A stretch of DNA of 64,000 nt. Origin: Trypethelium eluteriae (Eukaryota). The notes below the pieces were generated by a model. It saw only the letters and a program-made list of their open reading frames with translations, made no database searches and had not been told where the DNA came from. The position numbers and the translations under genes were made by a program. Below are positions 47,069 to 54,385 of the stretch, one piece after another. Location: contig JAVECL010000041.1 in NCBI GenBank assembly GCA_051942245.1, forward strand, positions 1 to 64,000. The letters run 5' to 3'. The first letter of the stretch is position 1; every line of letters begins with the position of its first letter.

Positions 47069-47377
47069 ATGTGCATCCGTATCATTGAGAAATATCCCGG
47101 CTGTGGTTGCATCTACCACATACACAACGTCGACCCTTGCCGTTTATACGGAAGACATCCTATCGAGGAACGTATAGTCTATGTTGGCTATTCATGCCCA
47201 CTCCATACTGGAAATCGCAATAGCTTGACCAACAGTTTGTCTTACTTCCGGTGGCAACGCAAGATGAAGCATATTCGATCCTGCGGATCAAGGACCAACC
47301 AGTTGCAGCAACTCACTGCGGCGCAAGCATCACAAGGAGCATTCGACATGGCTTCTAGGGGAGAGGAATACTCTTGA
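47069..47377 (+). CDS. Small Cys/His-rich hypothetical protein (MCxxxxExYxxCxC..DPC..H..VGYxCxxH)
   Basis: ATG with A at -3 after a CT-rich leader; the first 46 aa resemble a pattern I recall from unannotated Pezizomycotina microproteins. Confidence 0.65.
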   Translation: MCIRIIEKYPGCGCIYHIHNVDPCRLYGRHPIEERIVYVGYSCPLHTGNRNSLTNSLSYFRWQRKMKHIRSCGSRTNQLQQLTAAQASQGAFDMASRGEEYS

Positions 47378-48356
47378 ATGAAGGTACAGTGGATCAAGTG
47401 TGTTTGACGGCAATGAACATCAGCGGTGGGGACGAAAACTCTCGGCCCCGAGGACAAGGTGACAATTTCCGGCTCAACATCCTACTGCGACCCTCATGGT
47501 TTGCAAAAAGCCATGGTAGGACCATCGAAGAGATCCTCAACCGGCTTTTGTTTGTTAGTCTATCAAGGTTCTCGCTACCGTCTCTAGATATAACTCTAGA
47601 TCTTAGTGCAACCGGATCTGACCGATATATCGACTCAACGTATTTCGGGGCCGCAGCATCGCTTACTCGAGGGACCTTGGGAAAGGTCAAATATGATACC
47701 GAACAGCAGCCAGTAGAGAACCTCCTCAATAGCCCTTTCGAGCATTTTTGCAACCCATGAGGACTCGCAACAATATTTCTTATTGCATCTCTTGTCGCGA
47801 AGGGGGATGATACTCATAGTATGACCACATTGCGCTTACTTCCTTGTTGAAAGGCGCCCTGGAAATATGAAACTAAAGTATCGGTCACCTCTACAAACAT
47901 CCACATTTCCTGTCGCCACCCCTTATCATAAAGGATGGTAGACTCATAGCACGATCCTCTATACGCCAGTCTCGTTACGCCTCACACACATCAATCTACC
48001 TTCAGTCTTGCGATTACGAGAAACTCGACTCTTATATCTCCAGTGTCACAGGCTTCTGTACAAGTCAAGATAGGTGTCGGATTGGAGAGCTTCTGTTGGA
48101 GCCTGCTGTGCAACAGAGTATGTATACGATTCATCATGATGCTATTTGATAGTTCCCATTCCACAGCTGCACTTCCATGGCTAAATAAGCCGCTCGAGAT
48201 CAGGCAACCTCAGCACTTAATCTAAACTCATCGCTCGTTTTCCATCCATCAATCTGCCACATATTTCATCTCCTTTTTAGGTTCCATCGAAGACTGATTC
48301 ACTCGAGGACCAGGTTATAGCAGCTCCTTCTCAAGCGCTATCCCATATCACCTTTT

Positions 48357-48599
48357 CTACTTCCCGCCATGCTTGGTGTTGCCGTTACCGCCATCTTGAG
48401 AGGGTTTCTTGGTGTCATCAAAATGGTAATCTTTCCCCTCGAAAGGGTTGGTTCCACACTTAGGACATACATCATTGACAAAGCGTGGAGAGTCTTTCGG
48501 AATCCCGCACGCGATACCGCTGCCGATTGCTGGTACGCACCAATCGATTTTAGACTGGACGTGTTCGCAGGTGAAGATGCTAACGACTTCTTTGCACAT
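48357..48599 (-). CDS. Small Cys-rich hypothetical protein, 80 aa (MC-x8-CxH-x7-C-x9-C-x13-CxxC)
   Basis: ATG 48599 in aagATG context; MCKEVVSIFTCEHVQSKIDWC..IAC..VCPKC followed by a hydrophilic tail. Confidence 0.6.
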   Translation of the reverse strand: MCKEVVSIFTCEHVQSKIDWCVPAIGSGIACGIPKDSPRFVNDVCPKCGTNPFEGKDYHFDDTKKPSQDGGNGNTKHGGK

Positions 48600-51500
48600 C
48601 TTGAGCAATAGGGCCGAACTCCAAGGACCTGTCGAGATGCGATCGATACTATGGAGGGCTGGACACGAAGAGGCTGACCAGGCGATATAGGTGAGACTCG
48701 GTGGCCTTGACTCTCTTGTTCGGATGGACCAAGTGATGAACAGGTGTCTGGAGGTGTGACTAGATCGTTGCGCTGAGTAAGAGCAGTTGACGTCAAAGCC
48801 TTGAAGATAGCTTTTGAAGGATCTGACAATACAGGCTCCTTGGTCTGTAGAATATTTTCTGGATAAAAACAAGGCAAAGGTCGAAAAATTTTGTGGGCAC
48901 GCCAAAAGGTGTGGTGAGGAAAAGTCACATTTTCGTATTCACCACGGTGCAGGCATACATGAACCCAGCCATCACTCATTATGCCCCGGACATTCTACCT
49001 ACTATGGGGGCCTCCTCAGTCACCAAATCCGAGAACAGCTTCTTGCATCGAATGTGGGTTCCTCGGCCTTAACTTCAGGATGGTAGAACATCGTCACAAC
49101 ATCTCCGCATGTGGCACCTACGGACCTATCTTTCAGCATACTGTCCATGCAACTCAAAAAGTATACCTCTCCAATGTATCCCAGAAACTTACATTGTCTT
49201 GTTTTTCTCAGACACAAAGTTAAAGCTGACTTCAGGTTTGCAGATCAATGGGCGGCAGGAGCTCAAAAAGAATTCCGTCATTCTTCGTATCAATGCTGAC
49301 GACGTCATTGAACTGGTTAATGGTGGAGGCTGTCTTGATCATGTCTTCCAGGAGTCGAGATGGTGCCAACGGGCTGCTTTGCAATTCTCGTTTCAAATTG
49401 TCATCCGTCAAGGTCCAGAACATGACAAGCTACCACCATCAGTGTTGCACTTCCCGTAGATATGGATCTGAAAGGCTTGAGCCTAAGGCTCTCTGCCTAT
49501 TATCTATCTTTGGAGTCATTCAAGAGAAGGTCGAGAAGATGGATTTCGACCGGGAGACTCCTCTGAGTATGAAGACTGAGTACGAAGACTGAGACTACTT
49601 CAAGGGCAGAGTGGGAATGCTTCAAGTACAAGGAGTAACTGACTGGAATACCCTACCAATGAGATTGATGCAAAGCGAACTATAAAAGAAGGAGAAGACT
49701 AGGACTGGTGCAAAGCAAGAGACTGAAGACACTGACAAGGAAGCCACGGATTGATCTTATTATGTGGGTTCAAATTCATCAGCTATAACCACATGTCGCT
49801 TGAATGGCCTTCTTGAAGCTTCAGAACTGTCACATAAGGTCGCGCTCCAGTCGCATGATGTCGAAGTTCAGTTCGGGAAGGCATCCTCCAACCTGAGGAG
49901 GCCGCCCTGCCGTCTACAAAGGCCAGCATTCGTCCTCGAAAGCCTGACTCCAAATTAAAAATCCACCATTAAGATTCCAAGCTACCACATTGATATGCTC
50001 AGAATAAGAAATTTTGTCCTGATACTGGGACGCATTTTCAGGGCTTGAGAATCCATCCATCCAATCCATCGACAAAAGGTTACGCGAAAAATCCGAGTTA
50101 TGCAGAAGAACGAGGTTGTAAGCGGCTCCACCTTGCGTGATCGAGAATCTCGTGCTGTTACATTCAATTATTTTAGGTATGGAATGACTATGCTTAATGG
50201 CCAGCGACGGAGCTGTGCTTCTGGCGAACTCGTACTATGTCAGGATTATGGGGTGTACTGGGGGCGGCACTCCTAGATACAGATCTTCCGGAGAACCTCC
50301 TTATCACTATCAAGTCATTTTGAGGGAGTGGAGTGACGGCCCGAGGGTGTCGGAGCTAGCCAAAACCTCACTGAGGACTTCCCGGGTCCCACGGGATAGA
50401 GGTAGGTTCATGATATTCCACAGAACTCTTCTACCATTTAACATTAATCAATTTTATCATAGGCTCTGCGAGGGCCATTCTCTTCCTGTACAGTCTGTCG
50501 GTCAACCTTTCAACATCGAATATGACGTAATTGGAGCGCTCCTAGAAAGGAATATATATTTGCCGGAAATGCTCCGGCATATCCCCTTGGCCGATATATT
50601 TTCATCATGAACTCCAGGCCATTTCGTTCCAACGGCTACACTGGTATTCTATGAATTGTCTGATGTGCCGCCTCTTGCAGCCTGGCGACGTACTTCCCAG
50701 GACCGAAATATAGATCAGACGAGTTCGCCCGACCAGAGCCTCTGAATCCCGGCTGTGAAAGCTTGGCGTCGATCTCTAAATCCCAGCATCAATCTACGAA
50801 AACAATTCTTAGTATTGAGGTTAGGAAAGCTTTCGATGGTGCACAATCGCTCTCTGAACTCCAGCATGAACTACAAAAATACGCCTTAATACTAGAGTTG
50901 GGAAAGCTTTCGAGAGATCTCTGAACCAATTGGAAAAGCTTCTGTGTCTGATGTCGTCCAACTTGAAGACGCTTCTTGCGCACTTTTTGACGCTCGTGAC
51001 TGCTCTGCGATTTTACAACGACCATGACAGCCATAATTCCGGATCCTCTGCATCTCTGAACATCTTCCAATCGACACTGATCTGATACTATCCGATACTG
51101 AGCCCGTCCACAATGGTTCCACCACTGACACCTGGAAAAGTCACGGCCAGTAGACTATCGAGTACCTGACAGCCAGAGTTCACCAGAAGCAGAGGATTAA
51201 TTATCCCATAGGATCACGATAATCGGTGATTCGCACATTCCCGTGACCTGCTGAATCAGATTGGAGTCAGACCTGGGCGCTGACGCGAACCAACGCCCCA
51301 TGTAGAGCTAGGAATCACGCAACTCAGGTGCCCTCTGTAGTCTGTTCATCAGGCTGCGAGCTGTACGAAAACACCAGTACCTACGGGAGTAAACTCTGAG
51401 TCGATGTTTCAAGCTGTGGAGATACGCCAGTATAATTTTTGCTCTATCCAGTGAATGTGCGCTCCACAAGAAAAGAGGCCTTGAATCACGACCGGGTATC

Positions 51501-52598: not shown

Positions 52599-54385
52599 CT
52601 ACTCTAGAAATGTGAAGAGATTCGTGTGGACAATGTTCAGAGCCCGATCTGCTTCGCGCTCCTCAATAACGCAAGATATGTTGATCTCACTCGCTCCTAA
52701 TCAAAGAGTCTCGTTAGCACTGAACCAGAACATGCTCGAAGAAATATATGTCACCCACCCTGTGAAATCATTTCAATATTGATGTTATTCTCCCCCAACG
52801 TGCTGAAGAATCTACCACTAATACCAACCATATTCTTCAATTGCCTTCCCACCAGGCTCACAATCGCCATATTCGGCACCAGATCCACAGTGCCGTATTG
52901 ACGTAAATCAGTGACCGCGCCGTGGAGATCTTCGTCCTGGATACGCAACTCCTCTGCACCACCTCCGCTCAGCATGGCGACTTCGGAATGCAAGGCCATG
53001 GAGACATGCACCTCTGAGCTCGATATGAGATCGACAGAAAGATGCCACTTATCGAGCACCGAGAAAATACCCATCAGGAAGCCATGGGAGCGCGTGCGCT
53101 TGTTGGAGTGCACGTTCAACACCACAATTTGGCGCTTGATTGTGACGGCGGTCGGCCGCTTCGGGCGTTGTAATTGCTGTATGGTGGGGACGCTACTAGC
53201 AGAGCGATGGCGGAAGAGGCGCGGATCACGAAGAGGCGCGTTGGAGTTGATCTCCTCGGGGGTTTCGGGGAAGATGATGGTGCCGTTGTTGCGCGGGTTC
53301 ATCACGTTTTTGATGCGGATGGGAATACGCGCCCGGATGGCCTGCTCCATAGTGAGGTGATGAATGACCTCGGACCCATAGAAAGTAAGCTCAGCGGCTT
53401 CAGATGGAGTGACTGAGGAGAGAAGACGGGCAGTGGGCACCCGGCGCGGGTCTGCCGTGAAGATACCGTCGACTTCTTTCCAGACCTGAAGCTCTTTGGC
53501 GGCGAGCCCTACAGCGATGAGGCCTGCGCAGAGATCAGTATAACCGCGGCCAATGGTATTGAGGAGCCCCCCAGGAAAGTCGCCAAAGTAGCCGGTGATG
53601 ACTGGAACCTTGTCGCCACATTCGTAGACTTTTTCCGCTAGAGCGTGCGCAACGGACTCATAGAATTGCTCATCCAAGCCCTTGCCTGGAGACCTGGGTG
53701 GAATGACGGTAGCAAGATCCAGGTATTGAGCATTGACTCCCTGATCTTGCAACACGGCGGTCATAAACTGGCAGCTCAGCTTCTCGCCCTCGCTGACGAT
53801 GCTGTCCTCAATCAAAGCAATGATACCCTTAGAACTGATGCCTTCTAAATGTTGTGCAGACTCCAAGATCTTAACCAGGCTTTTGCACTCATCGTTGACT
53901 GCATCCGTAAAGCGCCCCAGGATATCTGTAGACCGAATAACATCCTGCGCCGCTTCTATATGATCTTTGCGAATTATTTCGACGATGCTCTCGTAACGTG
54001 TTGTGGATGCTTTCTTTTCCGCCTCTCGGGCAGCACGTAGCAACCTATTCGTGGTGCCTTCACTTTTCGTATGGCTGCTGCGGGCGGAGCAAACAACGGC
54101 AATTCGGCTCGAGGAGAGACCTACTCTAAGGGTACTCAGTGCCAACTCATATGTGGAGTTAGGATGGGAGAGCATACTGCACAATGTCTGCTATATTGAG
54201 TGGCTTCTTGCCTACCTATTGTTTGTCAATTGCTTACTCTTCGGATTGAAAGTTTGGGGCTGTTATACACTCGTGCCGCCAAATTTTTGGACAATCCATC
54301 CGCCCGGTAGGTTTTTCTCCTGTTTGTGAGGTATTAAATTGGCAATGCCAGCGGTGTGGCCGTTGGTGAAGGACTCGACACCCAT
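52599..54385 (-). CDS. hom3: Aspartate kinase (4 exons, including a 38-nt exon at 54178-54215)
   Basis: WIVQKFGGTS|VGK, GRGYTDL, WKEVDGIFTADPR, EAAELTFYGSEVIH, two ACT domains, EMISQG|ASEINISCVI. Confidence 0.96.

What the first reader, a model, noticed from the sequence alone, without database searches (positions are those of the whole stretch)
47069..48599. Convergent pair of Cys/His microproteins with different sequences but one seven-ligand spacing
Seen: two small ORFs face each other in an otherwise empty ~7 kb gap, and both begin Met-Cys in good Kozak context. ORF A ligands: C2, C12, C14, C24, H30, C43, H46. ORF B ligands: C2, C11, H13, C21, C31, C45, C48. The pattern MC-x8/9-Cx[CH]-x7/9-C-x5/9-[HC]-x12/13-Cxx[CH] is shared although the intervening residues differ, and neither has a signal peptide. 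Inference: they are divergent members of one uncharacterised intracellular metal-binding microprotein superfamily that annotation usually misses, possibly acting as a pair. I recall similar 'MC...' ORFs as hypothetical proteins in Pezizomycotina but know no assigned function.
Basis: partly seen in the sequence, partly recalled or inferred. Interest (0 to 1): 0.72.

Follow-up and report, generated by a model that had tools for sequence, protein, structure and literature searches.

The report
Unannotated fungal Met-Cys zinc-type genes
One of the two small facing genes is a clear, unannotated member of a large unnamed fungal family with an N-terminal Met-Cys domain that probably holds two zinc ions, while the other is an orphan that may be a real gene but is not shown to be its relative or partner.

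Summary
The two ORFs exist exactly as described: A at 47069-47377 (+, 102 aa) and B at 48357-48599 (-, 80 aa). All listed Cys/His positions are correct.

ORF A is real. A whole-library phmmer search found 328 cluster representatives at E<=1e-3. All matches lie in its first ~50 residues. The family is unnamed, has no Pfam model, and its named members are Pezizomycotina 'hypothetical proteins'. The domain begins Met-Cys at the extreme N-terminus. The spacing is rigid. AlphaFold2 gives a confident fold (pLDDT 88) with no PDB counterpart.

ORF B has no detectable homologue and scores 1.4-1.6 bits against the A-family profile. Its ligand spacing and global profile similarity to A exceed shuffles only modestly (p about 0.004-0.012). 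Its unusual composition and codon-like periodicity suggest real coding. Its motif order (MC..CxH..C..C..CxxC) fits a different Met-Cys class noted elsewhere in this scan.

A single superfamily or a functional pair is not shown. No RNA data were available.

The parts
47069..47377 (+). ORF A: complete 102-aa CDS (with stop) of an unannotated member of the unnamed Met-Cys C5H3 family
   Evidence: (86.1 bits against a family profile built without it). A TAA stop lies two codons upstream of the ATG, so the protein starts at Met-Cys like the family.
47069..47218 (+). N-terminal domain of ORF A (residues 1-50) with eight conserved Cys/His: C2, C12, C14, H19, C24, H30, C43, H46
   Evidence: Alignment A1 gives invariant and near-invariant columns. 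Spacing is rigid. AlphaFold2 pLDDT 88.4 with three strands and a short helix. No PDB fold match.
47219..47374 (+). Variable, hydrophilic tail of ORF A (residues 51-102)
   Evidence: Family matches cover query residues 1 to about 50-60 in most rows; 8 of 150 rows run past residue 70. Some tblastn alignments reach into the tail at 33-41% identity.
48357..48599 (-). ORF B: 80-aa orphan ORF, MC-x8-C-x-H-x7-C-x9-C-x13-C-x2-C; possibly a real small gene of another Met-Cys class
   Evidence: no homologue; not an A-family member; weak likeness; composition and periodicity; Atlas lead 0.89, below that tool's 0.9 line
48369..48611 (+). 80-aa ORF exactly antisense to B in codon register: rival reading of the coding-like signal at this locus
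   Evidence: No Pfam match.
47486..47769 (.). Imperfect inverted repeat (73-nt arms, 71% identical, 139 nt apart) between the two ORFs; not shown to belong to either gene
   Evidence: E 4.7e-8 in that comparison; RNA fold -92.9 kcal/mol, z -4.27, 0 of 200 shuffles as stable; no further copy in the window at <=3 mismatches

Best explanation
ORF A is an intact, unannotated gene of a large unnamed Pezizomycotina family. The family is defined by a domain of about 50 residues that starts at the initiator Met-Cys. Its pattern is C2-x9-C-x-C-x4-H-x4-C-x5/7-H-x12-C-x2-H.

Inferred, not shown: the five Cys and three His hold two zinc ions that staple a small three-stranded sheet plus a short helix. This module would serve as an N-terminal binding unit. 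It occurs alone with a disordered tail, as here, or in front of other regions in longer relatives.

ORF B is a separate entity. It is most likely a real small gene of a different Met-Cys class (six Cys, one His, CxxC-terminated). It has no demonstrated homology to A and no demonstrated partnership with it.
For: ORF A:
- phmmer against 1.84 billion representatives: 328 at E<=1e-3, 32 at E<=1e-10, best 1.8e-16. All matches start at query residue 1-3.
- 147 of 150 listed hits carry the core motif. 144 of those 147 have Met directly before the first Cys, and 72 have that Cys at residue 2.
- Alignment A1 (50 sequences): invariant M1 C2 E7 C12 C14 H19 C24 H30 G40 C43; >=90% conserved Y16 D22 G28 V39 H46. 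ORF A keeps all of them.
- Spacing x9/x1/x4/x4 is identical in all 143 of 150 hits that could be parsed.
- ORF A scores 86.1 bits against a profile built without it.
- Named members are hypothetical proteins of Sphaceloma, Cryomyces, Zalaria, Stachybotrys, Fusarium, Colletotrichum, Acephala and Thozetella.
- No Pfam family covers the domain in ORF A or in 24 long members. Two of these carry Asp_protease_2 and one carries SH3 plus LsmAD further along.
- AlphaFold2 with A1: pLDDT 88.4, pTM 0.64.

ORF B as a real coding sequence:
- Lowest Leu+Arg+Ser share of 180 ORFs >=60 aa, and the only one with no Leu.
- The highest RNY periodicity of the whole 7-kb gap, 0.654 against a mean of 0.50 (sd 0.041).
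- Atlas lead to Ascomycota hypothetical proteins of about 80 aa (0.89, 193 of 256 features).
- Its motif order equals that named in earlier scan notes from other genomes. These are leads, not support.
Against: - No RNA run was available, so transcription of either ORF is unknown.
- Codon-usage log-odds do not separate A (rank 118 of 284) or B (rank 36 of 284) from junk ORFs.
- Zinc binding and the two-site arrangement are inferred from conserved residues only. I could not inspect the model's coordinates.
- ORF B has no homologue in any search I could run.
- Its AlphaFold2 single-sequence model is uninformative (pLDDT 43).
- Its RNY signal is strand-symmetric. By my own estimate it is partly expected for a stretch open on both strands (about 0.55 expected).
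Confidence: 0.55

Rival explanations
1. One reading: A and B are diverged homologues of one Met-Cys metal-binding superfamily, perhaps from an old local inverted duplication, and may act together.
For: - Global alignment of B(1-50) to the A-family profile beats shuffles that keep Met-Cys: z 2.6-3.2, with 4-10 of 1000 shuffles as good under four gap settings.
- B ranks 2nd of 284 window ORFs after A, with and without the first two residues.
- Ligand-spacing distance: 242 of 20000 shuffles are as close.
- Pairwise phmmer alignments to several members fall in one register, pairing ID.C with VD.C and CP.C with CP.H.
- hhalign aligns the first 22 residues.
Against: - None of these reaches significance once selection among ORFs is allowed for. 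The margin is small (11.1 against 5.0 for a junk ORF).
- hhalign probability is 1.1%.
- Against the profile B scores 1.4-1.6 bits, and 201 of 2000 shuffles do as well.
- Best phmmer E is 0.082 in a library of only 150 sequences.
- B lacks the invariant E7, H19 and G40. It departs from a spacing that is identical in all 143 of 150 members that could be parsed.
- No DNA-level similarity links the two sides apart from a 73-nt inverted repeat outside both ORFs.
Confidence: 0.25
2. Only A is a gene. ORF B is a chance open frame in intergenic DNA, and its likeness to A is a coincidence picked out by eye.
For: - No homologue by any route, and the exact sequence is not in the collection.
- An 80-codon ORF is ordinary here: 29 ATG ORFs >=45 aa lie in the gap.
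- Two other MC-start, C/H-rich ORFs in the window are evident junk.
- AlphaFold2 pLDDT is 43.
Against: - B is an extreme compositional outlier: rank 1 of 180 for low Leu+Arg+Ser, and it has no Leu.
- Its locus has the strongest codon-like periodicity in the gap.
- Ligand spacing and profile likeness have p about 0.004-0.012.
- Atlas lead of 0.89 to ~80-aa Ascomycota proteins.
- The word-index searches also missed ORF A's many relatives at about 60% identity, so their blank for B carries little weight.
Confidence: 0.3
3. The coding signal at the B locus belongs to the opposite strand (48369-48611 +, 80 aa), and B is its antisense shadow.
For: The antisense frame is open over the same 80 codons in exact register. 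Its codon log-odds (0.059) are close to B's (0.077). RNY periodicity cannot tell the strands apart.
Against: It has no Pfam match, and its exact sequence is not in the collection. It shows no conserved-looking motif, whereas B carries an ordered Cys/His scaffold of a type seen in real fungal families.
Confidence: 0.08

Closest known systems
Unnamed Pezizomycotina 'hypothetical protein' family, e.g. PNS15432.1 (Sphaceloma murrayae), KAL2350309.1 (Cryomyces antarcticus), KAK8213214.1 (Zalaria obscura); names
   Same: ORF A shares the whole N-terminal domain at 35-65% identity. It keeps every invariant residue, the same spacing, and the start at Met-Cys.
   Different: ORF A is a short form (102 aa) with its own tail. 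Its exact sequence is not in the protein collection. ORF B is not a detectable member.
Met-Cys 'MC..CxH..C..C..CxxC' / Cys6-His small fungal proteins noted earlier in this scan (e1-7710200, e1-7502607, e1-7585801)
   Different: No sequences of those families were on hand, so homology was not tested. ORF A has a different ligand set (five Cys, three His).
Small structural zinc modules at protein N-termini, such as the copper-fist DNA-binding domain of Ace1/Mac1 (recalled from my own knowledge, not from a call)
   Same: A module of about 40-50 residues starting at Met1, built of a small beta-sheet with short helix, and held by Cys/His ligands. This is a likeness in how it may work, not in sequence.
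   Different: No Pfam family, copper fist included, matches ORF A even at E<=10. The ligand pattern differs. No PDB chain matches the model.

Membership tests
Unnamed Met-Cys C5H3 N-terminal domain family (Pezizomycotina hypothetical proteins) | Significant sequence similarity over the ~50-residue domain | tested here: met
   ORF A: 328 representatives at E<=1e-3 and 86.1 bits against a profile built without it. ORF B fails this feature: 1.4-1.6 bits, and 201 of 2000 shuffles score as well.
Unnamed Met-Cys C5H3 N-terminal domain family (Pezizomycotina hypothetical proteins) | Invariant M1 C2 E7 C12 C14 H19 C24 H30 G40 C43, and near-invariant Y16 D22 G28 V39 H46 | tested here: met
   ORF A has all 15. 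ORF B lacks E7, H19 and G40 in any alignment found.
Unnamed Met-Cys C5H3 N-terminal domain family (Pezizomycotina hypothetical proteins) | Rigid spacing C-x9-C-x-C-x4-H-x4-C-x5/7-H-x12-C-x2-H | tested here: met
   ORF A fits it. All 143 of 150 members that could be parsed share x9/x1/x4/x4. ORF B has x8, x1, x7 to the next Cys, then x9, x13, x2, so it does not fit.
Unnamed Met-Cys C5H3 N-terminal domain family (Pezizomycotina hypothetical proteins) | Domain begins at the initiator Met | tested here: met
   ORF A has a stop codon two codons upstream of the ATG. In the family, Met precedes the first Cys in 144 of 147 members.
Unnamed Met-Cys C5H3 N-terminal domain family (Pezizomycotina hypothetical proteins) | Metal (zinc) binding by the eight Cys/His | not testable with these tools
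   Inferred from conservation only. No coordinates or metal assay were available.
Met-Cys Cys6-His 'MC..CxH..C..C..CxxC' small proteins (earlier scan notes) | Order of motifs: Met-Cys start, CxH, two single Cys, terminal CxxC | tested here: met
   ORF B has C2, C11-x-H13, C21, C31, C45-x2-C48. This is a match of pattern only.
Met-Cys Cys6-His 'MC..CxH..C..C..CxxC' small proteins (earlier scan notes) | Sequence homology to members of that family | not testable with these tools
   No member sequences were on hand. A look-alike look-up by sequence found nothing.
Any curated zinc-finger or other Pfam family | Match to a Pfam-A model | tested here: not met
   0 families at E<=10 for both ORFs. 0 on the N-terminal domain of 24 long family members.
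Any solved fold (PDB) | Structural match of the ORF A domain model | tested here: inconclusive
   Foldseek best E 0.97, with 0 matches at E<=0.001. VIA-align against 48161 chains gave best Z 2.6 and none at Z>=5. Small metal-stapled domains are hard to match.

The most novel reading that the evidence does not exclude
The A-type (C5H3) and B-type (C6H) Met-Cys proteins are branches of one old Pezizomycotina-wide superfamily of two-zinc modules. These modules must sit at the very N-terminus because Cys2, next to the initiator Met, is itself a ligand or a redox or processing sensor. Stand-alone short forms such as ORF A would act as microProtein-like competitors of the long multi-domain forms. 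Convergent A/B neighbours would be a diverged paralogue pair.
Probability: 0.12. Interest if true: 0.75.

Novelty: new variant of a known kind. Interest (0 to 1): 0.45.

Why it matters
A domain present in hundreds of sequence clusters across the major classes of filamentous ascomycetes, plant and human pathogens among them, has no name and no Pfam model. It has no solved or matching structure and no known function. Yet it is strictly conserved down to the initiator Met-Cys.

Defining it would let many 'hypothetical proteins' and missed small genes be annotated. It would also give a clean target for a zinc-stoichiometry and structure study.

The case is also a caution: eye-matched Cys/His spacings between neighbouring small ORFs can look like a family when only one of them has demonstrable relatives.

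Tried and rejected
- Word-index homologue searches found nothing for A or for B near and longer lengths. They also missed A's many relatives, so they are weak.
- No whole genome is held for the window.
- The look-up of sequencing runs listed one DNA run and no RNA holder.
- The metagenome scan for B gave one locus, L001. It is a bacterial contig hit only through the low-complexity tail in a junk frame, so it is spurious.
- PDB sequence searches were not significant. The A1 profile's best hit was the pyrrolysyl-tRNA synthetase N-terminal domain at E 0.087. B's best hit was a chitinase at E 0.66.
- The AlphaFold2 model of B alone is uninformative (pLDDT 43).
- Complex prediction of the A domain with B and zinc returned 'no answer'. 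This is no evidence either way.
- Codon-usage log-odds were inconclusive.
- I tested whether A is the first exon of a long form, with a second module at 47413-47760 mirrored on the minus strand. No family member matches that region (best E 0.33). The mirrored peptides come from a DNA-level inverted repeat.
- A possible decayed second A-type domain at 49077-49169 (+) is not significant (E 0.23; tblastn best E 0.01 among 150 related queries).
- Five literature searches found no description of the family. I saw only listings and abstract starts and read no paper. Keyword search cannot find a family that has no name.
- Exact look-up of six window ORFs found none in the collection.

Full report
**What is there**

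The window is fungal-looking nuclear DNA. Flanking genes are RIX1, a TPR protein, aspartate kinase, a protein kinase and a P5-type ATPase.

Between the TPR gene (ends 45623) and the aspartate-kinase ORF (52751-54190, minus strand) lies about 7 kb without large ORFs. This gap has no Rfam match and no tRNA. The 7 further gap ORFs I tested have no Pfam match.

Their stop codons are 979 nt apart and face each other. Both ATGs have A at -3.

**Is it more than chance?**

Cys/His richness is common among junk ORFs:
- 21 of 284 ATG ORFs >=45 aa have >=7 C/H in the first 48 residues.
- 8 of 284 start MC, and 4 of those 8 have >=7 C/H. Two of those four are plainly junk.

When any seven-ligand subset may be chosen, 242 of 20000 shuffles of B come as close to A's spacing.

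**ORF A is a real family member**

Pfam finds nothing, and the word-index search finds nothing. A whole-library phmmer search finds 328 cluster representatives at E<=1e-3 and 32 at E<=1e-10, with the best at 1.8e-16. Every match starts at query residue 1-3 and most end near residue 50.

Of the 150 listed hits, 147 carry the core motif. In 144 of those 147 the residue before the first Cys is Met, also where the called protein runs further upstream. In 72 the Cys is residue 2.

In alignment A1 (ORF A plus 49 short members):
- Invariant: M1, C2, E7, C12, C14, H19, C24, H30, G40, C43.
- Kept in >=90%: Y16, D22, G28, V39, H46.

So there are eight fixed Cys/His, not seven. The spacing C-x9-C-x-C-x4-H-x4-C is identical in all 143 of 150 hits that could be parsed. 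It is followed by x5 or x7 to the His, then x12-C-x2-H in 123 of them.

ORF A keeps all of these positions. It scores 86.1 bits against a profile built without it. A stop codon lies two codons upstream of its ATG.

Members with names are 'hypothetical proteins' of Dothideomycetes, Sordariomycetes and Leotiomycetes. Lengths run from 48 to 865 aa: 53 of 150 are <=130 aa and 24 are >=280 aa. In the 24 long forms no Pfam family covers the N-terminal domain. Two have a retropepsin-like Asp_protease_2 domain, and one has SH3 plus LsmAD.

ORF A's exact sequence is not in the 15-billion-protein collection.

**Structure**

AlphaFold2 with A1 gives pLDDT 88.4 and pTM 0.64, with strands at 3-8, 15-18 and 33-38 and a helix at 44-47.
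- Foldseek against the PDB has no match at E<=0.001; the best is 0.97.
- VIA-align against 48161 chains gives best Z 2.6 and none at Z>=5.
- A profile search of PDB sequences gives only a non-significant hit (E 0.087).

Eight conserved ligands in 46 residues suggest two zinc sites. This is inference; I could not inspect coordinates.

**ORF B**

No homologue was found by the word index at near or longer lengths, in the metagenome scan (one spurious bacterial hit), or in PDB sequences. These blanks are weak, because the same word index missed ORF A's many relatives.

Against A's family:
- hhalign probability 1.1%, E 0.05, 22 columns aligned.
- hmmsearch 1.4-1.6 bits, with 201 of 2000 shuffles as good.
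- phmmer against 150 members, best E 0.082.

A global alignment to the family profile does beat shuffles that keep Met-Cys: z 2.6-3.2, with 4-10 of 1000 shuffles as good. B ranks second of 284 ORFs after A, but by a small margin. The pairwise alignments share one register. This is suggestive, not proof.

Independent hints that the B locus is coding:
- B has no Leu and one Arg, and the lowest Leu+Arg+Ser share of 180 ORFs >=60 aa.
- Its register has the highest RNY periodicity of the gap, 0.654 against 0.50 +/- 0.041. By my own estimate a frame open on both strands would already give about 0.55, and the signal cannot tell the strands apart. An 80-aa antisense ORF (48369-48611) is open in the same register.
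- The Atlas lead for B is 0.89 to ~80-aa Ascomycota hypothetical proteins, below that tool's 0.9 line.

Earlier notes of this scan describe Met-Cys small-protein families in other fungal genomes with the motif order MC..CxH..C..C..CxxC. ORF B fits this by pattern. These are unchecked leads, and I had no sequences to test them.

**Surroundings**

A 73-nt imperfect inverted repeat lies between the ORFs (47486-47557 and 47697-47769, 71% identical). It folds well beyond shuffles. It explains the mirrored peptide likeness I first took for a second protein module. Family members do not match that region.

**Verdict**

ORF A is a new, unannotated copy of a large, unnamed, uncharacterised Met-Cys C5H3 domain family. 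ORF B is unresolved. My estimates for B, which overlap:
- A real gene on the minus strand: about 0.55-0.6.
- A homologue of A: about 0.25.
- A chance ORF: about 0.3.
- An antisense shadow of a plus-strand gene: about 0.08.

No evidence bears on a functional pair, and no expression data were available.

Noticed in passing
window 47486-47769: Imperfect inverted repeat (73-nt arms, 71% identical, 139-nt spacer) about 110 nt downstream of ORF A's stop. As RNA it folds at -92.9 kcal/mol, z -4.27, with 0 of 200 shuffles as stable. There is no other copy in the window at <=3 mismatches. It could be a transposon relic or a 3' hairpin; its origin is unknown.
   Followed up: partly
window 49077-49169 (+), inside ORF 48981-49223: Weak likeness to the middle of the A-family domain (HRHNISACGTYG..H.V). 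Several family members hit it in one register, but it is not significant (hmmsearch E 0.23; tblastn best E 0.01). It may be a decayed second copy or chance.
   Followed up: partly
window 48338-48994 (-): Two overlapping open frames of 193 and 218 codons on the minus strand around ORF B. The stretch upstream of B's ATG has no ATG and translates to Ser/Arg/Leu-rich junk-like sequence. It is probably a 5' leader and chance.
   Followed up: partly
proteins P0086 and P0136: In some fungi the Met-Cys C5H3 domain sits in front of a retropepsin-like aspartyl protease domain. In P0117 it sits in front of LsmAD and SH3 domains. These fusions might hint at the module's partners.
   Followed up: no
The word-index homologue search returned nothing for ORF A, although the full HMMER scan found members of similar length at about 60% identity. 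Blanks from the word index for short proteins should be read with care.
   Followed up: yes
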